NCBI GenBank assembly: GCA_963666365.2
Contig: CAXXNF010000002.1
Location: 576,001 to 640,000 of the forward strand
DNA length: 64,000 nt
Reading direction: 5' to 3'
From: Syntrophales bacterium
Lineage (GTDB): Bacteria > Desulfobacterota > Syntrophia > Syntrophales > UBA2210
The notes under the pieces: model-generated
Database searches by the model: none
Told to the model about the DNA's origin: nothing
Seen by the model: only the letters and a program-made list of their open reading frames with translations
Position numbers and translations under genes: made by a program
Shown: positions 22,268 to 33,373 of the stretch, piece after piece
Numbering within the stretch: position 1 is the stretch's first letter
How the letters are laid out: the number at the start of each line of letters is the position of its first letter

Positions 22268-23659
22268 CTACAAATGAATCGCCCGGTTTTCTCCCGCCCG
22301 CGCCGTTTCCATCAGCATTTCGGAGAGGGTAGGGTGACCGTGCAGCATCTGTGCCATGTCCCTTAACTTCAGCCCTCCTGTTTTTGCCAGGAGCGCTTCA
22401 TGGACCAGTTCCGTCGCCTCGGCGCCGACAATGTGTGTGCCGAGGATTTCTTTCGTTTCTTTGTGGAAGATGAGTTTTACCATTCCTTCAACATTGTCGA
22501 GGGCAACGGCTTTTCCTGAAGATCTGTAGGGGAACACTGCCTTTCCGTAGGGTATGCTCTGTTCCGCTGCGTCCTTCTCTGTCATGCCGAATCCCCCTAC
22601 CTGGGGCTCGCAGTATATTCCGTAGGGGATTTCATCATGTTTGATTCGCGCTTCCGGCTGATGCCCGGCAATGTATTCAACGGCGGTTTCGCCTTCCTTT
22701 GATGCAACATGGGCGAGAAGGGGGGTATTAATCACGTCGCCGACGGCAAACACGGTGTCGACAGTGGTTTTGTAATAATCCCCCGTTTTTATGAACCCCT
22801 TTTCACATTCAACACCCAGGCGTTCAATGCCGATGTCTTCAATGTTGGGCGATCGTCCTACCGCGACGAGAATTTTTTCTGCGCTTAAGCGAGACAGGTT
22901 CCCCTTTCTCTCAAGGGTCACTTCACAGTGTCCGTTTTTGAATTGATAATCCACCATCTGTGCACTGACATAGGTTTCGATGTTGTGCTTCTTGAACACC
23001 CTTTGCAAAACCTTTGTTATTTCGGCATCACCCTGCGGAAAAAGACTGTCGAGCATTTCGACGATTGTCACATTGACCCCGAAAGAGTTTAAGATGTAAG
23101 CGCACTCAAGACCAATTGCTCCTGCACCCAGAATAATAATGCTTGTGGGGAGCGTTGTTAATTTGAGTATGCCCGTGGACGACAAAACACGCTCTTCGTC
23201 TATGGTGAGTCCCGGCAGGTCTTTCGGTCGTGATCCCGTGGCGATTATGATATTTTTTGCGGTGATTTCATCGGTATCGTCAATGATAATTTTGTTTGTT
23301 CCGCTAATTGTTGCCTTTCCCTGAATAAAATTTACCCTGTTCTTCTTCAGAAGAAACGACACGCCCTTCGAAAGCCTCTCTGCGGCCGTCCTCGATTTCT
23401 GATGCACCATCTCGTAATTGAACCCGGAGGTATCGGCCCTTACCCCCATGTGCTCAAGACCGGGCAACGAATTGTAAATTTGTGCCTGATTGATAAGCGC
23501 CTTAGTGGGGATGCACCCCCAGTTCAGGCACACGCCGCCCAGTTCGCTCTTTTCTATCACCGCTGCCGTGAGCCCGAGCTGGCGCGCCCTGATGGCGGCG
23601 ACATATCCGCCGGGTCCCGATCCGATGATTGCGATGTCGTAGTGATATTCCATTGACAT
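22268..23659 (-). CDS. lpdA: Dihydrolipoyl dehydrogenase
   Basis: GSGPGGY, GGVCLNWGCIPTK, GAGAIG, HPTLSE. Confidence 0.93.
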   Translation of the reverse strand: MSMEYHYDIAIIGSGPGGYVAAIRARQLGLTAAVIEKSELGGVCLNWGCIPTKALINQAQIYNSLPGLEHMGVRADTSGFNYEMVHQKSRTAAERLSKGVSFLLKKNRVNFIQGKATISGTNKIIIDDTDEITAKNIIIATGSRPKDLPGLTIDEERVLSSTGILKLTTLPTSIIILGAGAIGLECAYILNSFGVNVTIVEMLDSLFPQGDAEITKVLQRVFKKHNIETYVSAQMVDYQFKNGHCEVTLERKGNLSRLSAEKILVAVGRSPNIEDIGIERLGVECEKGFIKTGDYYKTTVDTVFAVGDVINTPLLAHVASKEGETAVEYIAGHQPEARIKHDEIPYGIYCEPQVGGFGMTEKDAAEQSIPYGKAVFPYRSSGKAVALDNVEGMVKLIFHKETKEILGTHIVGAEATELVHEALLAKTGGLKLRDMAQMLHGHPTLSEMLMETARAGENRAIHL

Positions 23660-23730
23660 TCCTCTTCTTGCAATGATGTGCTGTAACAGTAGCGCATTTT
23701 TTATCCGCTCAGTCTTTGAGGAGTGATTGC

Positions 23731-23934
23731 CTAAATCCTCTTCTCTTTTACAAGCCGCGCGAAATGCTCAAAAGACCGGTCATAGGTCGCCTCGGCCTCC
23801 TCCGAAAAGCAGCACCCGGGCAGCTGCCGCATCTTCAGATGATAGCGGATACAATCGCAGCAGACCCCTTTTCGGGAACAGGGTTCGTAGGAACAATTGC
23901 AGAAATCCAGATTTGCTTCCTTTTTACAGTCCAT
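23731..23934 (-). CDS. Small Cys-rich conserved hypothetical protein (DUF6485-like)
   Basis: CNCSYEPCSRKGVCCDCIRYH...LPGCCF; AAGGAG RBS before ATG 23934. Confidence 0.7.
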   Translation of the reverse strand: MDCKKEANLDFCNCSYEPCSRKGVCCDCIRYHLKMRQLPGCCFSEEAEATYDRSFEHFARLVKEKRI

Positions 23935-23995
23935 ACTATTCTCCTTATGACGAAGGTACATAACAAGAATGCAGGACAGGGTCAAGGCCGGGGGT

Positions 23996-24051
23996 AATTC
24001 CAGGGACAGTATACTTAATTATTTGGAATTAAGTATACTGTCCCCGGAATT
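23996..24051. repeat. Long inverted repeat, 25-bp arms with one mismatch
   Basis: AATTCCAGGGACAGTATACTTAATT-ATTTGG-AATTAAGTATACTGTCCCCGGAATT. Confidence 0.9.
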
Positions 24052-24056
24052 GTGAA

Positions 24057-25934
24057 TTACAGGAATATGACCGCCCACAGAATGAGAACGGCCAGCAGCA
24101 GGCCGACGATGAGGCTCGCCAGTCCGAATGCGGAGGCGGCAAGTTTTGTTGCTATTCCAGGATGTTCCCGCTTCAGATCGGCCAGTTTGCCTTCGGATAG
24201 AAGCCTCTCGTAGTGTTCCCGCTTATCTTCGTACAGTTCGTGAAGGGTGATTCTTCCCGTGAAGATGGTTCTGTCCATGGGGAATTTTTTCGGAATCAGG
24301 TGGGTATTGAAAAAATGCACCGTAAATATGAACAGCGCCGCCAGCAGCGCTTCCTCTGAATGCAGAAGGGCGGCCACATTCAGAACCCAGCCGGGGAACA
24401 GGTAGGAGGTCCATTCCGGGACCATGAGAAATATTCCTGACCCTCCTATGACCACCATGCCCCAGAAGACGGCGAGAAAGTCGAATTTCTCCCAGTAGGT
24501 CCATCGGTCAAATTTCGGCTGGTCCCCCCGGTTGAAAAACCATTTGAACATCCCCTTCATATCCTGCCAGTCTTTTAGATTGAAAAAGAGAGATTCCCTG
24601 CTGAACAGGCGTGTCAACCACCCGCTCCTTCCTTTACCGTTCTTTCTGAACAGGTAGCGGACAGAGCGCACCAGAATGTAGAAAAAGAGGGCAAAGAGGA
24701 GTAGCGCGGCAACTCGATGAAAGATGCCCGCCATATGCACGCCGCCCCATATGTCAATGAGAATTCTCGCCCAGGGAGCCTCGTGGTATTTCAGGGGAAA
24801 TCCCGTCGCTACAAGGGTCAAGAAGGATATCACCAGGATAATGTGGACAACAATGTCTTTTGTGGAAAAACGTTCAATTGATTGCAGACTTTCACTGTCG
24901 GACATGGGAAGGTGCGGTGTAATTCCCATTTTTTCCATATAGTGTTTGTCCCAGTAGGTTTTGCGCCACCAGAGGAAGGCGTGTATCCAGAAAAAGAGGA
25001 ATGTTGCCGCCAGAAGTCCGATCATGAAGACATTTGTCCAGTATAACGAGGGATAGCGCTTCCGGTTGCTGAAATCGGGGTGTGCCTGGTAGGCAACAAA
25101 GCGGGGATGGAAGCCGCTGTGGCACTTCCCGCAGTTTTCCACCAGGTTGCCGGGGTGAATCGATGATTCCGGGTTGTCTTTCGGAAGAATGTTGTGCGAT
25201 GTGTGGCAGTCGGCACATCCTGCAACCCGTGTCGGATTTCCGATGTCCTGGACTTTGCCGTGATACGTCCTTTTATAGGCGGCAACCGTCAAAGTGGAAA
25301 GATCGTTCCGAATCATCATTTCCGGGTCGTTGTGGCAGCGAATGCATGTCCGGGTGTAAAATTCCCGTGCCTCGGCGGGATATTCCTGCTGGGACGTATG
25401 ATACACATGGGTGCTGTGAAGTCCATGACAATCGGAGCAGGTTGCCGCATCTTCGTTTCCCTTCGCGACGGCCATGCCATGACCTGAATGGGCGTATTCA
25501 TCGTTGGAATGACACTCGGTGCATTGGTGGAGCGTTGCCGATTTAATGGATGCCTTTCGGGGCTGCACGGCGTGGATATTGCGATGACAGTCATAGCACT
25601 GAAAATCCTGATGCAGATAGTGATAATTGTGTAGGTATTCTTTCGCAATTTCGTTATGGCAGCTTCCGCAGGCCACAAGGGTGGATCGCGTCGTACCCGT
25701 CATGTGTCTCTCGATATCGGTGATATCGCTATGACAACTGACACATCCCTGGGCGCCGTGCACCGAGGCGGGGTAGGCGGTTCGATACAGGTAATCATCA
25801 TGACAGGAGAGGCAATTGACGGAAGTCGTCGCACCGGGATTGGTGTCACTGCGCTGTGTCTTCACTGAAGCAGAGGCCTGAGTGAAAATGCAGACCAGGA
25901 TGACTGCCACTGCAGTGATGAGGGAATAACGCAT
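24057..25934 (-). CDS. Nonaheme cytochrome c fused to a cytochrome b membrane domain (CbcL-like)
   Basis: Signal peptide; 9 CxxCH (CLSCH, CVSCH, CGSCH, CYDCH, CTECH, CSDCH, CIRCH, CADCH, CGKCH); TM domain with TGFPLKY, YWEKFDFLAVFWG, HSEEALLA, HFFNTH; GGAGG RBS. Confidence 0.88.
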   Translation of the reverse strand: MRYSLITAVAVILVCIFTQASASVKTQRSDTNPGATTSVNCLSCHDDYLYRTAYPASVHGAQGCVSCHSDITDIERHMTGTTRSTLVACGSCHNEIAKEYLHNYHYLHQDFQCYDCHRNIHAVQPRKASIKSATLHQCTECHSNDEYAHSGHGMAVAKGNEDAATCSDCHGLHSTHVYHTSQQEYPAEAREFYTRTCIRCHNDPEMMIRNDLSTLTVAAYKRTYHGKVQDIGNPTRVAGCADCHTSHNILPKDNPESSIHPGNLVENCGKCHSGFHPRFVAYQAHPDFSNRKRYPSLYWTNVFMIGLLAATFLFFWIHAFLWWRKTYWDKHYMEKMGITPHLPMSDSESLQSIERFSTKDIVVHIILVISFLTLVATGFPLKYHEAPWARILIDIWGGVHMAGIFHRVAALLLFALFFYILVRSVRYLFRKNGKGRSGWLTRLFSRESLFFNLKDWQDMKGMFKWFFNRGDQPKFDRWTYWEKFDFLAVFWGMVVIGGSGIFLMVPEWTSYLFPGWVLNVAALLHSEEALLAALFIFTVHFFNTHLIPKKFPMDRTIFTGRITLHELYEDKREHYERLLSEGKLADLKREHPGIATKLAASAFGLASLIVGLLLAVLILWAVIFL

Positions 25935-25967
25935 CGGTCCTCCGATCGTCAAGGTTCCGCCGTTCAT

Positions 25968-26729
25968 CTATTTTATCCTTTTCTTGAAGGATCGCCAGTC
26001 GCTCATTCCACCAAACAGGCGCTGTATGTCCACCAGACCCCGTTCATAAAGGTAGCATGCGGCAAGAAAAGACCGGTGCCCCTGTTCATCCACCACAATT
26101 ATTTTCTTGTCCATGGGCAGTTTCCGGTAGGTGGCTTCGAGTTCATCGAGAGGACGGTTGATTGCGCCGGGGATGTGGTCTTTTTCGAAAAGATCCCTGG
26201 ACCGGATGTCAAGGATCAGGATGTCCTTCTTTTCGTTGATCCAGCGGTTCATCACTTTCGGTTTTATCGATTCGATTCCCACCCGGGGAATACGCGTTTC
26301 GGATTCAACGCCATACCCGCCTTCCTTCCAAGCGGGCAGGCCGCCGTCTAGGATATACACGTTTTGATAGCCAAGCTCACGGGCCTTACGGGCTGCGTGC
26401 ATACTTCGATGACACCCGATACTTGCACAGTAGATAATGAGCGGTTGGTCCTGATTTTGTATCATCTCGGGCGCCCTTTTTTCGAATTCCGGGCAGGGAA
26501 TACAAAGAGAACCTGGTATGCGGTGATCCCCGCATTCAATGGCACTCATGGTGTTGATGAAAAGGAGATCGTCTGTTGCCTGCATCATCCGGTGCGCTTC
26601 AATCGCCGTGATCAGCGGAGGTGTCTCCTCCGCGGCGATTGAAATGCCGGTTGCGGCGAACATGAAACACCACAGCGCCATAACCGCCCGCACGAGCACC
26701 CACTTATTTTTTACCGTCGGTGATTTCAT
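25968..26729 (-). CDS. Exported tandem-domain rhodanese (sulfurtransferase)
   Basis: Signal peptide; domain 1 HRIPGS...YCASIGCHRS...LDGGLPAW; domain 2 HIPGA...VDEQGHRS...LFGGMSDW; exact start uncertain. Confidence 0.85.
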   Translation of the reverse strand: MKSPTVKNKWVLVRAVMALWCFMFAATGISIAAEETPPLITAIEAHRMMQATDDLLFINTMSAIECGDHRIPGSLCIPCPEFEKRAPEMIQNQDQPLIIYCASIGCHRSMHAARKARELGYQNVYILDGGLPAWKEGGYGVESETRIPRVGIESIKPKVMNRWINEKKDILILDIRSRDLFEKDHIPGAINRPLDELEATYRKLPMDKKIIVVDEQGHRSFLAACYLYERGLVDIQRLFGGMSDWRSFKKRIK

Positions 26730-28728
26730 CGGGTATGGGCACCTCTCTAAAGCCCCACTGGTACATCTGCGGTTTCGCATTCGGTTCCCTGGGGGTCGGG
26801 TAGTCTTCGACCAGGAAACGCCCGGGATTTGTAACCAGCATCTTCGTGAAAAAGGTGGATGTATCGGAATGACAGTCGTAACATCCTTCCGGTTTCCCCT
26901 TCGATCCGTAAGTCTTTCCTATATCGATGGGCACAATATTATGATGAACGGGAAAATTATGCGGATGAGCTGCGAGATGATCCTCATAGGTTGCCACGGC
27001 GCCGTCCTTCAGTTCGTAGATTTTGTCGGATACGAAGACCACGTTGCGGAACCCCATCTTTGTCAGCGCTTCGATCATCGTCTTGATCGTGTCATCCGTT
27101 GCGATGGTGGGGCGTGTGACCGCCTTGCCGGTGATATCCTTTACCTTCGCAAGAGTGGCGGTATTGAGACTCTCGTAAGCCTTTTTTACGTACTTGAGGA
27201 TGATCGGCCGGATTGCCATATTGTCCATCTTTTCACCGAACCACTGGGCAACTTTCGGAACAACGGGGATGTACTGTTCTCCGAGGCCGTTTCGCGCATC
27301 GTATCGGGTAATCCATGGTGCCCAGGGCTCCGGTGTAAGAATACCGAAATCGTCGCTCCAGGTGATGGTTTCCAGGGTACCCGCCGTGTACCAGACCTGC
27401 TTTCCCATCGACATGTCAAGCAGATATCCCGACATGGCCGGTTGTCTCGTAGAATGGCAGTTGGCACAGCTGATCAGATCGAAATGGAACATGGCGTCGG
27501 GGAATTTTTCTTTGTGAGTCTTCGTTGGATTTTTCGCCTCTTCCGGCATGTCCGGCCGCGTCGCCTGATATTTTCCTTCCAGATGGCACGCCGCACAGGT
27601 TTTCATCCCCACGCCGTCGAGATCATCACGCACGCTGCCCATCGGATGCCAGCCCTTTGCTATCTGATGTTCCAGGCGCTCTTTCTCGGTTGTTCCCACC
27701 AGGCTGTGACAGTCGGTGCATTGGAGCCCCGCCTTGTAATGGGCGTCATATTCCGGTTTGTGGACCCATCCGACTTTCTTCGCATCAGGTCCTTTGTGAC
27801 ATTGCAGACAACTTTTCGTTTCAACCGCCTTCGATATCACAGTGCCACGGAATCGGCCTTCCCTGGTAAAGATATTCCGATCATCCCAGTTGTAGGTGAC
27901 GGTCGGCCGTTCCGAAAAATTCCAGGTGCCCCTGAGAAAATCCTTTGATCCCGGGCCGGCGTCATTATCGGCATACGTGAAAATTGCGCCTTTGATTTTT
28001 CCGAGAACGGCGCCTGCCGTGGCGGCCCACCGGTAATTTCTCTTGTTGAGCTGCTGATTGCGGGCCCCGAAGCTGTACTCTTTCATGTGGCAGAGGAGGC
28101 AATCGGCTTCTACGACGCCGCTCTCCTTGAAATGACTCCTGCCGTCAGGGGTGAGATTTGACGTATAGTCTCCGTCAAGAGGATTTACGTTACGGCGCTC
28201 ACCTTCGATGAGATTCATGGAATAATCGGGGGCGCCGTCCCATTTTCTGCCGTATTCCATGGATGCGCCTCCGGGATGACACCATCCGCAGGAGGTTGAT
28301 TTTATTTTTTTTGCAGGATTTAATTTCCCGTAGCCACCGATCCAATCGTAGGCGGACAGGTCAATTTGCTTCGGATCATCGTTGTTTTTGCGGGCAACAC
28401 GGCCTGACCTGGTTGCAGGGGGTCACCACTTGCCGTACATGCCCGGCGATAACAGCCAGGGCTGCCTCGGGTTATACGTGTCGCTCATCTCCATGAAGCC
28501 CTGCTGGAAATGAAACCCCGAGGAAATAGTTGAGTAGGGATGACATCCGCCGCATGTCCTGCGAGGACTGTAGGGATCACCCTGATTCCTGTCCTGCGTG
28601 ATCTGTTCTCCCCGCTCGTTTTTCAATTTTACATCACGGTGAATTTCGGTTTTTGCGGATACTGAAGAATAGATAAAAACAATGGAAAAAACTGCGGCAG
28701 CTACTACAGACACCAACTTAGGTTTCAT
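26704..28728 (-). CDS. Putative selenocysteine-containing octaheme cytochrome c, tetrathionate reductase (OTR)-like; UGA at 28425-28423 = residue 102 of 674
   Basis: ORFs 28423-28749 and 26704-28260 share a frame; the 54 codons between them are stop-free and include CGWCH; total 8 CxxCH; signal peptide; CAGGAGG RBS before ATG 28728. Confidence 0.8.
28394..28416 (-). promoter_or_regulatory. Candidate SECIS hairpin of the octaheme cytochrome
   Basis: Starts 6 nt after the UGA: GCAAC-CA-GGU-CAG-GCC-GU-GUUGC; weaker than the fdnG SECIS. Confidence 0.45.
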
Positions 28729-28810
28729 GAAGGCCTCCTGTCGGCACATTCAAGTTTAATCATTGGAGTAAGTAACCACATGCATCGGTAAGGCATTGTC
28801 AGTAGCCTCC

Positions 28811-28838
28811 AGTATACTGATTTCATGAGTTAGGTCAA
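28811..28838 (-). promoter_or_regulatory. sigma70-type promoter for the cytochrome operon
   Basis: Minus strand TTGACC-16 nt-TATACT about 85-110 bp upstream of the start. Confidence 0.55.
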
Positions 28839-28854
28839 CGAAAATGAAATAGAA

Positions 28855-28883
28855 AAAGGGAAAGGGAAAGGGAAAGGGAAAGG
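28855..28883 (+). repeat. Tandem hexamer (AAAGGG)x4 plus partial copy
   Basis: AAAGGG AAAGGG AAAGGG AAAGGG AAAGG. Confidence 0.9.
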
Positions 28884-28927
28884 CTGAAGCCCATCCCTGG
28901 ACACACTATCGCATCCCTCACAATGAG

Positions 28928-30268
28928 TTAGCGCGGGGCGCCCCCGGAATCCGCAATGTGCCTGCTGATGCCTCGTACTGTCTCCATGGCTGCAGTGATG
29001 TCGATGGTGCGAATAGTGCGATCTTTCATGATCACTTTCCCGTCGATGATTACCGTGGAGACATCCGATCCCGATGCCGCATAGACGACCTGCGAATAGG
29101 GGTTGTAGAGGGGCGTTAGATGGGGCTGATTCAGGTCGAGAAGGATGATGTCGGCCTTCTTCCCCGTTTCGATTGATCCGACGATGGGCTCAAGACCAAG
29201 CACCTTCGCTCCTCCTACGGTGGCCATTTCCACGACGGTTTGTGCATCCATCACCGTGGGATCAAGGGCTGCCACCTTGTGAAGCCTAGCCGCGGCGCCC
29301 ATCTCCCGTATAAGATCGAGATCGTTGTTGCTTGCACATCCATCGGTGCCCAGCCCCACCGTGATGCCCTGTGTAAGCATTTCAGGAATTGCTGCAATGC
29401 CGGCAGCAAGCTTCATTGAGCTTTCCGGATTGTGAGAGACTTTTGTGTCATGATCGGCCATAATGGACACTTCTTCCTCGTCAAGCCAGTTGCAATGTAC
29501 GGCCACCGTGTGTTCGTCCAGAACGCCCAGTGTATAAAGGTGGCGAAGCGGCGTGTTTCCGTAGCGTTCCTTAATATCGCTCACTTCTTCCTGCGTTTCC
29601 GAAAGGTGGGTCATAAAGAGCGTATTGGACCGGCGTGCGACTTCCTTGATGTCCTGATATGTGGCAGGTGAACAGGTATAGGGCGCGTGGCAAAAGAGGG
29701 CAGGGGTGATAAGGGGCGATGCTGCCCGCCAGCGGTCGATAAAGGCTTGAGCGACCTCCATATTTTTACTCGGATCAGGATTCCCCGGCGCCGGAAAATC
29801 GGTAAATCCCGCGCAGACCACACCGCGCATTCCCGATTCGACGGCTGCGTGAGCGATGCTTCCGGGGTAGAAATAGGCGTCGCAAAACGTTGTTGTTCCC
29901 GAAAGGATCATTTCGGCGATGGCAAGCCGGGCGCCGGCACGGCAGAAATCCCTGTTCACAAATGCGGCCTCGGCGGGGAAAATATGATTTGTAAGCCACT
30001 CGGTGAGGGGCAGATCATCAGCAAGTCCCCGAAAGCAGATCATTGGAAGATGCGTGTGGGTGTTGACAAGACCCGGCATCACAAGCGATCCGCGGGCGTC
30101 GATCGTCTCCTTGGCTGTGGCAGCGGTGCGGTGGGCGTTGGCGCCGCCCACAAAGACAATCCTGCCGTCTCGAATGCCGACATCGCCGTTTTCTATGATG
30201 TCTCTGTCATTTGAAATTGTGAGAATCAGGCCTCCGTGGATCAGAATGTCAAGTGCAGTTTCCTCCAT
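28928..30268 (-). CDS. Amidohydrolase, MtaD-like (methylthioadenosine/SAH deaminase family), copy 2
   Basis: PGLVNTHTH, HAPYT, HLSET, AVHC, HNPESSMKLA, GTDGCASNN. Confidence 0.85.
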   Translation of the reverse strand: MEETALDILIHGGLILTISNDRDIIENGDVGIRDGRIVFVGGANAHRTAATAKETIDARGSLVMPGLVNTHTHLPMICFRGLADDLPLTEWLTNHIFPAEAAFVNRDFCRAGARLAIAEMILSGTTTFCDAYFYPGSIAHAAVESGMRGVVCAGFTDFPAPGNPDPSKNMEVAQAFIDRWRAASPLITPALFCHAPYTCSPATYQDIKEVARRSNTLFMTHLSETQEEVSDIKERYGNTPLRHLYTLGVLDEHTVAVHCNWLDEEEVSIMADHDTKVSHNPESSMKLAAGIAAIPEMLTQGITVGLGTDGCASNNDLDLIREMGAAARLHKVAALDPTVMDAQTVVEMATVGGAKVLGLEPIVGSIETGKKADIILLDLNQPHLTPLYNPYSQVVYAASGSDVSTVIIDGKVIMKDRTIRTIDITAAMETVRGISRHIADSGGAPR

Positions 30269-30277
30269 GCCGGCCCA

Positions 30278-31600
30278 TTACTCCATGTTTTTTTTGATCC
30301 GGTCCGCGATCTTTCTGACACGGCTCATGCAGAGCGTTTCGTCGATGGTGAGAAGCGCCCGCTTTTCCATCACAAGTGTTCCGTTAATGATGACGGTGTC
30401 GACATCGCTTCCGTTCACGGCGTAGACCAGATGAGAATATTCATTATACATGGGGGTGAGGTGTGGTTTATTGCAGTCGATTATAATCACATCAGCCTTT
30501 TTGCCGGTCTCCAGAGATCCCACGAGGTTCTCCATACCAAGCACCTTGGCCCCGTTGCAGGTGGCCATGCGGGTGACTGTTGCGGCGGACATGACAGTAG
30601 GATCGAAGCGCACCACTTTTTCAAGCTTGGCCGCTGTATCCATTTCCTGAAACATGTCGAGGTTGTTGTTGCTGGCGCAGCCGTCGGTACCCAGTCCCAC
30701 GCAAATGCCGTGATCCAGCATACTCGAGATCGGTGCAACACCGGAGGCAAGCTTCATGTTACTTTCCGGGTTGTGAACTACTTTGCACCCGTGATCTGCA
30801 AATATGCGGATATCTTCCTCATCCATGGTCACGCAGTGAAACGCAAAAAACCGCTCATCGAGAAGCCCGAGTTCTTCGAGAAATCGCGTGGCCCGTTTCC
30901 CCAGCTTCTCGTTGAGCTGCAGCAGTTCCCCCTTGTTTTCCAGGAGATGCGTCGCCAGAGGCGCCTGATACTCGTCAGCCAGGATTTTTGATTTTTTCAA
31001 GAGATCACTGGAGCAGGTATAGAGCGCATGCGGTTCAACCACGATATTCACCAGAGGATCATCGGCCCACTTTTCAAAGAGCATCCGTGTGTAACGAAGT
31101 CCCTCCTCCGGCGACTTGATGTTGGGCGAGGGAAAGTCGAAGAAGACCTCTCCCAGAAGGCAGCGCATACCGGCCTCATGGGCGGCGCGGGCCGTTTCGT
31201 CCTCAAAGATATACATGTCGCAAAAAGTGGTGGTTCCCGATTTTATCATTTCGGCGCAGGCAAGCAGGCTTCCCCAGTAGGCCAGTTCAGGATCAACGTT
31301 TTTTGATTCGGCGGGGAATATATAATTATTAAGCCAGTCCATCAGTTCCATGTCATCGGCAATTCCTCGAAAGCAGGTCATCGCAGCATGGGTGTGCGCA
31401 TTGATGAGACCGGGCATGACCAGACATCCCGAGGCATCAATAATTCTTTTTGCATGACTATTGTTCAGGAGTTCGCTCGATTTTCCTAACGCGACTATTT
31501 CATCACCCTTGATGGCAAGCGCACCCTCAGGTATTCGAGTATCACTTTTGTCAACCGTGAGAATTGTTCCGTTTGTTATGAGTATATCCGCTTCGATCAT
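30278..31600 (-). CDS. Amidohydrolase, MtaD-like, copy 1
   Basis: PGLINAHTH, PHALYT, HLLEN, HNPESNMKLASG, GTDGCASNN. Confidence 0.85.
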   Translation of the reverse strand: MIEADILITNGTILTVDKSDTRIPEGALAIKGDEIVALGKSSELLNNSHAKRIIDASGCLVMPGLINAHTHAAMTCFRGIADDMELMDWLNNYIFPAESKNVDPELAYWGSLLACAEMIKSGTTTFCDMYIFEDETARAAHEAGMRCLLGEVFFDFPSPNIKSPEEGLRYTRMLFEKWADDPLVNIVVEPHALYTCSSDLLKKSKILADEYQAPLATHLLENKGELLQLNEKLGKRATRFLEELGLLDERFFAFHCVTMDEEDIRIFADHGCKVVHNPESNMKLASGVAPISSMLDHGICVGLGTDGCASNNNLDMFQEMDTAAKLEKVVRFDPTVMSAATVTRMATCNGAKVLGMENLVGSLETGKKADVIIIDCNKPHLTPMYNEYSHLVYAVNGSDVDTVIINGTLVMEKRALLTIDETLCMSRVRKIADRIKKNME

Positions 31601-31974: not shown

Positions 31975-32062
31975 GCCTGGGTGGCGGAACTGGTAGACGC
32001 AAGGGACTTAAAATCCCTCGGTCCTTGCGACTGTGAGGGTTCGATTCCCTCCCCAGGTACCA
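31975..32062 (+). tRNA. tRNA-Leu (anticodon TAA)
   Basis: Acceptor GCCTGGG/CCCAGGT, D-loop GGAACTGGTAGAC, anticodon arm AGGGA-CTTAAAA-TCCCT, long variable arm, GGTTCGATT, encoded CCA. Confidence 0.97.
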
Positions 32063-32067
32063 TAAAA

Positions 32068-33159
32068 TCAAGGGGTTACGGCTTTTAGGGTTGTAACCCT
32101 TTTTATTGGAATTGGCCGATTGTAACCATTTTGTAACTGTCCAGATTGTCTTTCTCTGAATTCTTGCCTCTTTCTAGCGGCTTCCTTCAGGTCGTCCTGT
32201 GAAACGATGTTGTATCGATCAAATACACTTCGAGTCTTATGACCAGAGATTTCCATCACGACACGTTCAGGTATACCCGCTCTCACCATGTTCCTGATGG
32301 AGCTTCTCCTCAAATCATGGAAAAGGAGATCCGGCATGCCAATGGTGGTGCAGGCTGTCTCCCATGCCTTACGAAAATCAACCAATTGTTTTCCCTTATG
32401 GTGGAAGACATAGAGACAATCCATGCGCCGCTTTTTATATAGTTTCTTCACCATTTCCAGCAACTCAGGTTCCATGTAGAGCGTTCGGCCTTCTGTATTT
32501 TTCGTCTCTCCCGGTTCAAGCCTTACAGTTCCTTCACGCAAGTCAACCTGACTCCACTTCAGATTGATTATTTCCCCCTTTCTCCAGCCTGTAAAGTAAC
32601 CAAATGTAAGGACAGTCCTAAGATGCACAGGGAGCTCTTTCATGAGGGCCAGATATGCTTCATACTCTATAAACCCTTTCCTAACATTGTTTTCCTTTAG
32701 CATCGGGATATAGGGCACCTGTGCTACTTTGGGAGGCGTACATCGGGCAGCCAAGTTAAAAGCCCTCTTGAGAGCGGCCAATTCCCTGTTGATTGTGGCA
32801 TTCGATTTTCCTTGGACCAATCTGTTCTCAATATACTTTTTGATTAATGTTGATGTGATCTCCGGTGCTCTCATGCCACCAAAATACTCTTTGAGATATC
32901 TGGTACACCGCTTCGCCTTCTCCAGTGTCCTCTTTCTATTGACTCTGTAATCGGTGAGGTAATCATCCATTATCTCATCAAAAGTTATTTTATCAAAAAC
33001 GATCCCAGGCATTTTACCGGTAGAAATCTCACCTTCTCTGAGCTTTAATAAGTGTTTAGCAACTTCCTGTTTGTTACTATGACTCGATTCGGCATAGGCC
33101 TTGCCGTTCCTGTAATACTTGACCCAGTAGGTATTTCCTCGCCTGTAAATACATCCCAT
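32068..33159 (-). CDS. Tyrosine recombinase (phage integrase family)
   Basis: GWRKGEI, TKN, FHDLRR, SGHKT, DRYN catalytic residues; start 33159 or 33168. Confidence 0.95.
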   Translation of the reverse strand: MGCIYRRGNTYWVKYYRNGKAYAESSHSNKQEVAKHLLKLREGEISTGKMPGIVFDKITFDEIMDDYLTDYRVNRKRTLEKAKRCTRYLKEYFGGMRAPEITSTLIKKYIENRLVQGKSNATINRELAALKRAFNLAARCTPPKVAQVPYIPMLKENNVRKGFIEYEAYLALMKELPVHLRTVLTFGYFTGWRKGEIINLKWSQVDLREGTVRLEPGETKNTEGRTLYMEPELLEMVKKLYKKRRMDCLYVFHHKGKQLVDFRKAWETACTTIGMPDLLFHDLRRSSIRNMVRAGIPERVVMEISGHKTRSVFDRYNIVSQDDLKEAARKRQEFRERQSGQLQNGYNRPIPIKRVTTLKAVTP

Positions 33160-33160
33160 C

Positions 33161-33373
33161 TTAGTCATCTCCTTTCTCGGGATGGTTTCGCTTGACCAGC
33201 TGAAGGTCATAGCCAAGGTAATCGGCAATCTGTTCTAGCTTTTTCAGGGAGATTGATGTTTCCCCCTGGAAAAACTTTGACAATTGGCCCTGATCAATCC
33301 CTAGATCCTTCCAGAGCCTATATGCCGTGACCTTTTCCCTATTCATGATGTCTTTCAGGCGATTCCCCATCAT
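33161..33373 (-). CDS. XRE/Cro-like HTH regulator
   Basis: TAYRLWKDLGIDQGQLSKFFQG...LEQIADYLG; start could be 33412. Confidence 0.75.
   Translation of the reverse strand: MMGNRLKDIMNREKVTAYRLWKDLGIDQGQLSKFFQGETSISLKKLEQIADYLGYDLQLVKRNHPEKGDD

What the first reader, a model, noticed from the sequence alone, without database searches (positions are those of the whole stretch)
24057..28728. Candidate selenium-dependent sulfur-respiration module: Sec-octaheme + rhodanese + CbcL-like quinol oxidoreductase
Seen: three tightly packed minus-strand genes behind one promoter-like site, all with export signals: octaheme cytochrome with in-frame UGA, tandem rhodanese, nonaheme/cytochrome b fusion (17 CxxCH in total). 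Known: rhodaneses carry sulfane sulfur; CbcL-type proteins link quinol to periplasmic hemes; OTR-family enzymes reduce S/N oxyanions in vitro; the Geobacter ext cluster also pairs a rhodanese with a multiheme selenoprotein. Inference: a self-contained chain quinol -> cyt b/9-heme -> Sec-octaheme -> polysulfide, tetrathionate or a Se compound delivered by the rhodanese. I know of no description of this three-gene combination. Substrate and direction are not shown by sequence.
Basis: partly seen in the sequence, partly recalled or inferred. Interest (0 to 1): 0.9.

Follow-up and report, generated by a model that had tools for sequence, protein, structure and literature searches.

The report
Selenocysteine octaheme, rhodanese, quinol-oxidase operon
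Three tightly packed genes encode a membrane quinol-oxidising cytochrome, a periplasmic sulfur-carrier-like protein and an eight-heme enzyme-like cytochrome with a selenocysteine; the trio is conserved in syntrophic bacteria, has not been characterised, and probably gives them an extra respiratory outlet.

Summary
Three minus-strand genes encode an exported octaheme cytochrome with one in-frame TGA, a tandem rhodanese, and a nine-heme/cytochrome b fusion (17 CxxCH in all).

- **Selenocysteine:** The TGA is most likely selenocysteine. It recurs at the same alignment column in 12 of 81 family members, with Cys in 7. The genome has selA, selB, selD and tRNA-Sec.
- **Fold:** The octaheme matches no curated family. 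Its model has the fold of Shewanella octaheme tetrathionate reductase (Z 11.9), and a profile comparison aligns hemes 4-7 (94.7%).
- **Conservation:** The gene order is kept in 56 of 61 related loci with enough flank, nearly all from Syntrophales MAGs.
- **Sec history:** Sec looks ancestral and was lost in most of the family. Many sister operons instead carry a second multiheme selenoprotein and another rhodanese upstream.

Best reading (about 50%): a menaquinol-linked periplasmic reductase of an S-S or Se compound. The substrate, the direction and the Sec-heme geometry are not shown. Sec, the rhodanese cysteine and even the heme-2 motif are dispensable in many relatives.

My searches found no paper on this operon. 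MccSep (2026) is an unrelated-family analogue. This scan noted the same module earlier in three other genomes. It is a new variant of a known kind.

The parts
28811..28838 (-). sigma-70-like promoter candidate (TTGACC, 16 nt, TATACT)
   Evidence: 10 of 12 matches. The region has 6 such sites against 5.6 in shuffles, so it is weak evidence.
28734..28739 (-). Shine-Dalgarno AGGAGG, 5 nt before ATG 28728
   Evidence: Read directly from the sequence.
26704..28728 (-). Octaheme cytochrome c selenoprotein: OTR fold, 8 CxxCH, signal peptide
   Evidence: No curated family match.
28423..28425 (-). In-frame TGA read as selenocysteine (GKW-U-PP)
   Evidence: TGA at this column in 12 of 81 sequences and Cys in 7. 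Sec machinery is present in the genome.
28394..28416 (-). Hairpin 9-31 nt after the UGA, a candidate SECIS element
   Evidence: a hairpin is present in 12 of 12 TGA loci. It does not discriminate, because non-TGA homologues fold as well.
25968..26780 (-). Exported tandem rhodanese. Domain 1 loop is YCASIGCHRS (Cys118, Cys123); domain 2 has Asp at the active-site position. Likely start near 26732.
24057..25967 (-). CbcL-like fusion: signal peptide, nine c-type heme motifs, six-helix cytochrome b (FdnI/HydC-like) domain
   Evidence: TIGR01583, E 3.4e-5 at residues 364-553; PF01292 in homologues.
23996..24051 (-). Perfect 25-bp hairpin just after the operon's last stop codon: a possible terminator or repeat element
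   Evidence: -39.1 kcal/mol, z -8.3. There is no T-run. Similar sequence occurs in other contigs.

Best explanation
The three genes form one respiratory module of the periplasm.

**Proposed chain**
- The nine-heme/cytochrome b fusion (CbcL type) oxidises menaquinol in the inner membrane and passes electrons along its heme c chain.
- The octaheme cytochrome, a remote relative of octaheme tetrathionate reductase, is the terminal enzyme.
- Its selenocysteine, in the loop between heme motifs 1 and 2, acts as the nucleophile on a chalcogen-chalcogen or selenium substrate. Candidates are tetrathionate, thiosulfate, polysulfide and selenite.
- The heme chain then reduces the resulting adduct.
- The exported tandem rhodanese, with a Cys-x4-Cys loop in domain 1, binds or hands over the sulfur/selenium substrate, or serves as an adaptor.

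**Status of each step**
- Shown: the gene anatomy, Sec coding, the OTR fold, operon conservation, and that the heme-2 motif type goes with the residue type at the Sec site across clades.
- Inferred: electron direction, the catalytic role of Sec, the substrate class, and the role of the rhodanese.

For a syntroph that must otherwise dispose of quinol-level electrons as H2 or formate, this would be an opportunistic electron outlet.
For: **Sec**
- TGA lies in frame between conserved blocks.
- TGA sits at the same column in 12 of 81 sequences spanning 30-85% identity, with Cys in 7.
- selB, selA, selD and tRNA-Sec are present in the genome.

**Enzyme-like octaheme**
- The AF2 model has pLDDT 82 and pTM 0.84.
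- Its only significant PDB match is 1sp3 (Shewanella OTR): Foldseek E 4.2e-5; Z 11.9, rmsd 4.3 over 334 residues, with the next match at Z 2.9.
- hhalign against an alignment of 19 TIGR04315 sequences gave 94.7%, E 6e-8, pairing hemes 4-7.
- The mature protein is about 9 kDa per heme by my arithmetic. A review passage classes cytochromes above 7 kDa per heme as catalytic (PMC7096707).

**Sec in the canonical OTR family**
- 28 of 67 matches over the cut-off carry one TGA, by my count of the table.
- In 8 of 8 fetched TGA loci the Sec lies between hemes 1 and 2. Where I measured it (9 loci: 3 Sec, 6 Cys), the residue is 40-41 residues after heme 1, against 43 here.

**Link between the Sec site and heme 2**
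- The heme-2 motif differs by clade along with the Sec site: CGWCH with W-U-PP, CGWTH with GKG-C/U, PGWTH with GKGG.

**Quinol link**
- Nine CxxCH plus six transmembrane segments with histidines.
- An FdnI-like match.
- PF01292 in homologues.

**Operon**
- The same order and strand occur in 56 of 61 loci.

**Sulfur/selenium theme**
- All 12 Sec/Cys-type octahemes pair with a rhodanese that keeps Cys118.
- Sister operons add an ExtH-like rhodanese (88.5 bits) and a second multiheme selenoprotein.
- MccSep shows that heme plus Sec can reduce polysulfide and selenite (PMC13510729, Results and Discussion read).
Against: - 62 of 81 family members have neither Sec nor Cys at the site, yet they keep the triad.
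- 13 rows (L069-L076, L078-L082) have lost one or both heme-2 cysteines altogether.
- The rhodanese lacks Cys118 in 26 of 60 aligned orthologues, and domain 2 has Asp in 66 of 66.
- The Sec loop is the least confident part of the model (pLDDT 47-58). I had no coordinates, so closeness of Sec to heme 2 is not shown.
- The Sec lies 45 residues before heme 2 here, against 10 in canonical OTRs. The profile alignment did not reach it, so equivalence is unproven.
- The hairpin after the UGA is no stronger than in non-TGA homologues (median -9.95 against -11.9 kcal/mol).
- From recalled standard potentials, menaquinol to polysulfide is uphill. That favours higher-potential acceptors.
Confidence: 0.5

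Rival explanations
1. It is the same quinol-to-octaheme chain, but the enzyme reduces small nitrogen oxyanions or intermediates (nitrite, hydroxylamine) or acts as a broad detoxifying reductase. Shewanella OTR does this in vitro. The rhodanese would be structural or unrelated to catalysis.
For: - The fold relationship is to OTR.
- OTR is cited as using nitrite (PMC13510729 Discussion) and is listed under a title on nitrite and hydroxylamine reduction (reference lists).
- Most family members lack Sec/Cys, and many rhodaneses lack the catalytic Cys.
Against: - The strict pairing with rhodaneses, and with a second selenoprotein cytochrome plus an ExtH-like rhodanese in sister operons, points to S/Se chemistry.
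- Sec/Cys is retained at one site in several deep lineages.
- I identified no proximal Lys signature like that of OTR. The GK motif 8 residues before the Cys/Sec of canonical OTRs is not matched here.
Confidence: 0.15
2. It is an electron-transfer-only module. The CbcL-like protein oxidises quinol and the octaheme merely shuttles electrons through the periplasm to extracellular acceptors or partner cells. There is no bound substrate, and Sec and the rhodanese are relics.
For: - CbcL homologues work in extracellular electron transfer, and 'Syntrophus sp.' homologues were noted next to cytochrome genes (PMC6295460 passages).
- Sec/Cys and the heme-2 motif were lost in many clades without loss of the triad.
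- The genome has another locus with a 21-heme/cytochrome b fusion.
Against: - The octaheme is about 9 kDa per heme and has an enzyme fold.
- No porin-cytochrome or outer-membrane component is conserved beside the triad.
- Sec is costly and is kept in basal lineages.
- The rhodanese is retained in 56 of 56 triad-clade loci with room.
Confidence: 0.15
3. The module runs in reverse. The octaheme and rhodanese oxidise a reduced sulfur compound (thiosulfate, sulfide, polysulfide), and the CbcL-like protein reduces the quinone pool.
For: - A paper passage proposes that CbcL/MtoC/MtrH homologues act in both directions (PMC6295460).
- TsdA-type heme enzymes are bifunctional (PMC5146829 passage).
Against: - The hosts are Syntrophales, known as fermentative syntrophs. 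That is background knowledge resting on the titles of related records.
- I did not look for a terminal oxidase or other sink, so this rival is weakly tested.
Confidence: 0.1
4. The TGA is a true stop or a mutation, and the octaheme is a split or dead gene.
For: - Gene callers split it: the closest database entries are 518-aa fragments.
- The SECIS-like hairpin is not discriminating.
Against: - The downstream fragment would lack the signal peptide and heme 1.
- TGA is at the same column in 12 sequences from divergent clades, and sister clades have Cys.
- Complete Sec machinery is present.
- There are no differences at the site in the contigs of two runs that were listed.
Confidence: 0.03

Closest known systems
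Octaheme tetrathionate reductase (OTR) of Shewanella oneidensis, PDB 1sp3; NCBIfam TIGR04315
   Same: - Eight CxxCH motifs, periplasmic, with a long stretch before heme 8.
- Same fold (Z 11.9), and hemes 4-7 align profile to profile.
- Many Desulfobacterota members of TIGR04315 carry Sec or Cys between hemes 1 and 2.
   Different: - There is no sequence-level match to TIGR04315 even at E <= 10, nor to 1sp3.
- The protein is about 230 residues longer.
- Its Sec lies 45 rather than 10 residues before heme 2.
- The GK motif 8 residues before the Cys/Sec of canonical OTRs is not conserved here. That this motif supplies the Lys ligand is my recollection plus PMC13562315.
- It is linked to a rhodanese and a CbcL-like gene.
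MccSep / ExtKL (GSU2937-2936) of Geobacter sulfurreducens with the rhodanese lipoprotein ExtH
   Same: - A periplasmic multiheme cytochrome c selenoprotein from a gene cluster that also has a rhodanese.
- It was shown to reduce polysulfide and selenite with Sec as nucleophile beside heme 2 (PMC13510729).
   Different: - MccSep has five hemes, and its Sec comes from a C-terminal Ig-like domain (DGUP loop).
- Its heme 2 is His/Cys-ligated.
- The window's protein has eight hemes, an N-terminal Sec (KWUPP) and no cysteine beyond the 16 heme cysteines.
- It gave no NF040886 hit.
- P0002 gave no ExtH hit at E <= 0.001.
CbcL (GSU0274) and the CbcL/MtoC/MtrH family of quinol oxidases/quinone reductases
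   Same: Nine c-type heme motifs fused to a HydC/FdnI-type cytochrome b membrane domain. Homologues in 'Syntrophus sp.' are reported in PMC6295460.
   Different: - I could not measure identity to Geobacter CbcL, because its sequence was not held.
- Here the gene is locked into an operon with an enzyme-like octaheme and a rhodanese, rather than standing alone or with porin-cytochrome genes.
Rhodanese-related (seleno)protein family NF041203 ('LYCAU', CxU motif)
   Same: It is among the better NCBIfam matches of domain 1 (63.8 bits). The loop begins IYCAS where that family has C-x-U (motif from the table in PMC13188914).
   Different: - The score is below the cut-off of 115.
- Ser stands where that family has Sec.
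- The window's protein is a tandem protein with an Asp-type second domain.

Membership tests
Selenoprotein (bacterial Sec decoding) | In-frame UGA at a position where homologues have UGA or Cys, with conserved sequence on both sides | tested here: met
   TGA in 12 of 81 and Cys in 7 of 81 at the same or adjacent column.
Selenoprotein (bacterial Sec decoding) | selA, selB, selD and tRNA-Sec in the genome | tested here: met
   selB, 361.5 bits; selA, 608 bits; selD, 382.8 bits, itself with a TGA; tRNA-SeC, anticodon tca.
Selenoprotein (bacterial Sec decoding) | SECIS hairpin shortly downstream of the UGA | tested here: inconclusive
   A hairpin is present in 12 of 12 TGA loci. The same region in 69 non-TGA homologues folds as well or better. 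There was no Rfam hit.
OTR family (TIGR04315, octaheme_Shew) | Match to the family model above its cut-off of 375 bits | tested here: not met
   no TIGR04315 hit at E <= 10.
OTR family (TIGR04315, octaheme_Shew) | Eight CxxCH motifs and the OTR fold | tested here: met
   8 motifs; 1sp3, E 4.2e-5, Z 11.9; hhalign 94.7% over hemes 4-7.
OTR family (TIGR04315, octaheme_Shew) | Active-site heme 2 ligated by a Lys from outside its CxxCH motif | not testable with these tools
The GK motif 8 residues before the Cys/Sec of canonical OTRs has no fixed counterpart here.
MccSep / ExtKL (NF040886) | Five conserved heme motifs, a Sec in the C-terminal domain, and a Cys distal ligand on heme 2 | tested here: not met
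   The protein has eight motifs, Sec at residue 109 of 681, and no free Cys. There was no NF040886 hit. The defining features are taken from PMC13510729.
CbcL/MtoC/MtrH quinol oxidase family | Multiheme c domain fused to a HydC/FdnI-type cytochrome b with transmembrane histidines | tested here: met
   9 CxxCH; 6 hydrophobic segments; His329, 375, 417, 536, 551/556; TIGR01583, E 3.4e-5; PF01292 in homologues.
CbcL/MtoC/MtrH quinol oxidase family | Orthology to Geobacter CbcL (the paper reports 57.6-100% identity within that clade) | not tested
   No GSU0274 sequence was held. Top hits are named only 'cytochrome C' or 'cytochrome b subunit of formate dehydrogenase'.
Rhodanese (PF00581) sulfurtransferase | Rhodanese fold domains | tested here: met
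   104 bits in 2 stretches.
Rhodanese (PF00581) sulfurtransferase | Catalytic Cys in the active-site loop | tested here: inconclusive
   In the window, domain 1 has Cys118 (and Cys123) in an elongated loop, and domain 2 has Asp. Across orthologues Cys118 is present in 34 of 60, and domain 2 has Asp in 66 of 66.
ExtH (NF040901) | Match to the ExtH model | tested here: not met
   P0002 has no NF040901 hit at E <= 0.001. The extra upstream rhodanese of sister loci scores 88.5 bits, below the cut-off of 200.

The most novel reading that the evidence does not exclude
The window keeps the ancestral, minimal form of an undescribed class of heme-plus-selenocysteine reductase. It is an OTR-fold octaheme whose Sec works at the heme-2 site. 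It is wired to the menaquinone pool by a CbcL-like protein and served by a periplasmic rhodanese. The module would let 'obligate' syntrophs respire sulfur or selenium compounds. It would be a second heme-Sec catalyst, evolved independently of MccSep, and it would show a respiratory electron sink in Syntrophales that current models of syntrophy leave out.
Probability: 0.3. Interest if true: 0.8.

Novelty: new variant of a known kind. Interest (0 to 1): 0.62.

Why it matters
Syntrophales are treated as organisms that can dispose of electrons only as H2 or formate, or by direct transfer to partners.

A conserved quinol-linked periplasmic reductase would change how their energy budget and their niche in sulfur- or selenium-bearing anoxic habitats are modelled. 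The octaheme was found in 90 of 301 sampled genomes of the order.

It would also add a second protein family in which selenocysteine works with a heme centre, shortly after the first (MccSep) was characterised. The family offers natural Sec, Cys and residue-less variants of one enzyme for comparison.

Tried and rejected
- **Sequence searches against solved structures.** phmmer and the A2 profile against PDB sequences gave only NrfB-level noise.
- **Rfam.** The scan of 23000-30000 found no SECIS or other family. It gave only chance microRNA-like hits on the 25-bp hairpin.
- **SECIS by folding energy.** Rejected as evidence, because non-TGA homologues fold as well.
- **hhalign.** Global mode gave a meaningless alignment. 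The N-terminal sub-alignment paired hemes 2-3 only (61%) and never reached the Sec. Equivalence of U109 with the Cys/Sec of canonical OTRs is therefore left open.
- **Model coordinates.** None were available in the script box, so no Sec-to-heme distances could be measured.
- **Rhodanese-octaheme complex.** Binding remains untested.
- **RNA runs.** No RNA holder was listed, so co-transcription could not be examined. The contigs laid cannot show transcripts.
- **Genomic island.** I considered that the triad might lie on one. The tRNA-Leu, integrase and low-GC stretch begin at 31975 and extend away from the triad, so this was rejected for the window. The patchy distribution in the family (3 of 37) still allows transfer or loss.
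- **Flanking genes.** The two amidohydrolases, the lipoamide dehydrogenase and the S10-like peptidase are not conserved beside the triad in other loci.

Full report
**What is there**

Between 24057 and 28728 the minus strand carries three tightly packed genes.

The first gene was split by the ORF finder into 28423-28749 and 26704-28260. Both pieces share one frame and are separated only by TGA at 28423-28425. Read through, the product has eight CxxCH motifs. ATG 28728 sits 5 nt behind AGGAGG and opens a typical signal peptide. The Sec is U109 in the numbering of P0003, which starts at ATG 28749. Counted from ATG 28728 it is residue 102.

The second gene (25968-26780, likely start near 26732) encodes two rhodanese domains (104 bits). 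Domain 1 has the loop YCASIGCHRS. Domain 2 has Asp where the catalytic Cys would be.

The third gene (24057-25967) abuts the rhodanese stop codon. It encodes a signal peptide, nine CxxCH motifs (residues 52-283) and six hydrophobic segments carrying histidines. It has a weak formate-dehydrogenase-gamma match (TIGR01583), and its homologues carry PF01292.

The promoter-like site at 28838-28811 exists but is not above chance. A perfect 25-bp hairpin follows the last stop codon.

**Is the TGA a selenocysteine codon?**

Evidence for:
- I aligned the window with 80 related loci from species-representative genomes. TGA sits at the same column in 12 of the 81 sequences: the window, L009-L012, L037, L065, L077, L083, L084, L086 and L087.
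- These span 30-85% identity to the window. Seven further sequences have Cys there. The codons were checked as TGA.
- The genome encodes selB, selA, selD, itself with a TGA, and tRNA-Sec.
- Without read-through, the product would lose its signal peptide and heme 1.
- Contigs of two runs from two studies cover the codon without differences in the pieces listed. One of these runs may be the window's own source.

A weak point:
- A hairpin lies 12-19 nt after the UGA in all 12 TGA loci. The same stretch in the 69 non-TGA homologues folds at least as well (median -11.9 against -9.95 kcal/mol). The hairpin is therefore no independent evidence.

**What the octaheme is**

It matches no curated family. 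Only generic cytochrome domains hit in Pfam. Nothing specific hits in NCBIfam, not even TIGR04315 or the ExtKL model at E <= 10. No solved structure matches by sequence.

An AlphaFold2 model built from 80 homologues has pLDDT 82 and pTM 0.84. The Sec loop is its weakest part, with pLDDT 47-58.

The model has a single clear structural relative, the Shewanella octaheme tetrathionate reductase 1sp3:
- Foldseek E 4.2e-5.
- Z 11.9, rmsd 4.3 over 334 residues, with the next chain at Z 2.9.

I then fetched canonical OTR-family genes (TIGR04315) from genomes of the same phylum. 60 of 401 genomes have a match over the cut-off. A profile-profile comparison with the window's family gave 94.7%, E 6e-8. 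It pairs hemes 4, 5, 6 and 7 one to one. The N-terminal halves pair hemes 2 and 3 at 61%. The family is therefore a remote branch of the OTR fold class, not a member of TIGR04315.

**Sec in canonical OTRs**

By my count's table, 28 of 67 canonical OTR matches over the cut-off contain one TGA.
- In the 8 TGA-bearing loci I fetched, the Sec lies in an N[NS]F-U motif between hemes 1 and 2.
- In the 9 loci where my motif search measured the spacing (3 with Sec, 6 with Cys), the residue is 40-41 residues after heme 1 and 10 residues before heme 2.
- A recent review lists a GenBank-annotated Sec form of TIGR04315. In the passages I saw, it lists only two other heme selenoproteins, ExtKL and the GSU2204 family (PMC13188914).
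- In the window's protein the Sec is 43 residues after heme 1 but 45 before heme 2. The alignments never reached it. Equivalence of the two Sec sites is a hypothesis, not a result.
- From memory only, Shewanella OTR has Lys56 on heme 2 and Cys64 in the active site. A paper passage confirms the Lys ligation but gives no residue numbers (PMC13562315).

Within the window's family the Sec site changes together with the heme-2 motif:

| Heme-2 motif | Sec-site sequence | Loci |
|---|---|---|
| CGWCH | W-U-PP | window, L009-L012 (L065 and L077 have the same Sec site with CGGCH and CGWCH) |
| CGWTH | GKG-C/U | L013, L014, L032, L033, L037, L043 |
| PGWTH | GKGG[ED]PG (GKGGAPG in L073, where only GWTH aligned) | L069-L076 |
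| further decayed (AGWY[HLM], AGWVM; L081 retains only the His) | no Sec or Cys | L078-L082 |

This ties the loop functionally to heme 2.

**Conservation and history**

- The octaheme family has 642 database members at E <= 0.001 and 260 confirmed genome hits. Nearly all come from MAGs titled Syntrophales, Syntrophaceae, Smithella or Syntrophus.
- Of 61 loci with at least 2800 nt downstream, 56 carry rhodanese and then the CbcL-like gene in the same order and strand. 51 met strict criteria. Five more have split matches that are visible.
- The five loci without the triad are the 30-35% identical relatives.
- In a sample of the order, 90 of 301 genomes have the octaheme. In the window's own family only 3 of 37 do, all with a TGA. 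The one other genome of the genus has none, at 97% completeness.
- I built a quick maximum-likelihood tree of 77 rows, dropping four fragments and rooting on the distant relatives. Sec-bearing lineages sit at the base: the outgroup, L077, L065 and the window's clade of five.
- A derived clade of 65 rows holds the 59 rows without Sec or Cys, five with Cys and one with Sec. Sec thus looks ancestral and was mostly lost. The rooting is an assumption, and several branches are long.

**The wider operon elsewhere**

- In 51 of 69 loci with at least 2300 nt upstream, another multiheme cytochrome precedes the octaheme. In 42 of these there is also a further tandem rhodanese, which is ExtH-like at 88.5 bits, below the cut-off.
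- That upstream cytochrome is itself a selenoprotein with the motif [EAG]GEG-U-AG in at least 34 loci.
- ResB/CcsA cytochrome-maturation genes often follow the operon. A flavocytochrome c with a small tetraheme cytochrome often precedes it.
- The window and its nearest relatives with enough upstream sequence (L010-L012) lack the upstream pair and hold the minimal three genes.
- The window's genome keeps a homologue of the upstream selenoprotein cytochrome, with a TGA, at another locus. It lies beside a 21-heme/cytochrome b fusion, two TAT-signal proteins I did not scan against any family, a cytochrome b and what look like ResB/CcsA-type genes.

**The rhodanese**

Across orthologues:
- Domain 2 has Asp at the active-site position in 66 of 66.
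- Cys118 of domain 1 is present in 34 of 60 aligned. That is all 12 partners of Sec/Cys-type octahemes, but only 22 of 48 partners of the others.
- A different cysteine pair (C83, C93) is present in 54 of 61.

A persulfide-carrier role is therefore plausible for the window's copy. It cannot be the universally conserved role of this protein.

**Mechanism proposed**

Menaquinol is oxidised by the CbcL-like protein. At about 3 kDa per heme by my arithmetic, its periplasmic heme domain looks like a wire. Electrons then pass to the octaheme, which at about 9 kDa per heme falls in the class a review calls catalytic (PMC7096707).

By analogy with MccSep, Sec attacks an S-S or Se substrate and the hemes reduce the adduct. 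In MccSep, Sec beside heme 2 attacks polysulfide or selenite (PMC13510729; Results and Discussion read).

Which substrate is used is open. From recalled potentials, tetrathionate or selenite would be easier acceptors for menaquinol than polysulfide.

Rivals are nitrite or hydroxylamine reduction, pure electron shuttling, reverse operation, and a dead gene. They are weighed in their own sections.

**Novelty**

- Searches for selenocysteine with multiheme cytochrome and rhodanese found MccSep and an unrelated genome paper.
- Searches for Syntrophus with multiheme, cytochrome b and rhodanese found nothing on this operon.
- Searches for OTR with selenocysteine found nothing on this operon.
- Searches for octaheme, Syntrophus, Smithella, rhodanese and CbcL found only a genomic survey. 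It notes CbcL homologues in 'Syntrophus sp.' next to cytochrome genes (PMC6295460; passages).
- Searches for selenoprotein with multiheme and Syntrophales found the selenoproteome review.
- Subscription journals and supplements were not searched.

This scan had already noted the same module in three other genomes. Those AI notes agree with my reading. One of them led me to check the upstream selenoprotein cytochrome, which I confirmed.

I file the finding as a new variant of a known kind. The part types are known (OTR fold, CbcL type, rhodanese, heme plus Sec). The family is uncharacterised and the operon undescribed, and here it appears in its minimal, Sec-bearing form.

Noticed in passing
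window 31975-33228 and onward to about 43000: tRNA-Leu (taa) at 31975-32062 is followed at once by a tyrosine recombinase gene (32068-33228, minus strand). G+C drops from about 0.51 to 0.40-0.45 beyond it. This looks like an integrated element at the tRNA, lying outside the triad.
   Followed up: partly
window 23996-24051: A perfect 25-bp inverted repeat (-39.1 kcal/mol, z -8.3) lies just after the operon, without a T-run. Similar sequence turns up in other contigs of the laid runs at high depth, so it may be a dispersed palindromic repeat rather than a plain terminator.
   Followed up: partly
window about 28853-28883 (minus strand): A run of about five CCCTTT hexamers lies between the upstream amidohydrolase gene and the promoter-like site of the operon.
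   Followed up: no
window 28928-31600: Two tandem paralogous amidohydrolase genes (TRZ/ATZ or deaminase-like, best hits below the curated cut-offs) lie upstream on the same strand. They are not conserved beside the triad in other loci.
   Followed up: partly
own genome C2:2003495-2015868 (outside the window): A second cytochrome locus holds a 995-aa protein with 21 CxxCH and a CbcL-like C-terminus (51% identical to the window's third gene). It also holds a 12-13-heme protein with an in-frame TGA in the motif SEGEG-U-GG, a 207-aa cytochrome b-like ORF, two proteins of about 510 aa with TAT-like signals, and ORFs of ResB/CcsA size that I did not scan.
   Followed up: partly
own genome C1:117305-118655 (outside the window): A canonical OTR-family (TIGR04315) gene matches in two pieces (337.6 and 191.4 bits) with TAA as well as TGA stops inside. 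It is probably a broken copy.
   Followed up: no
loci L013, L014, L017 and others, upstream of the octaheme: The upstream multiheme cytochrome of sister operons is a selenoprotein family of its own (signal peptide, heme 1, then [EAG]GEG-U-AG). It gave no NCBIfam match above noise (best hit ExtM, 32 bits against a cut-off of 800).
   Followed up: partly
loci L092-L111 (genomes of the same phylum): Canonical OTR genes of Desulfobacterota very often encode Sec in an N[NS]F-U motif 10 residues before heme 2, where others have Cys. A conserved GK lies 8 residues upstream.
   Followed up: partly
loci L007-type long variants (L032, L037, L043, L081; proteins P0007-P0016): Some octaheme homologues carry two or three tandem copies of the roughly 100-residue segment between hemes 7 and 8, giving proteins of 860-910 aa.
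   Followed up: no
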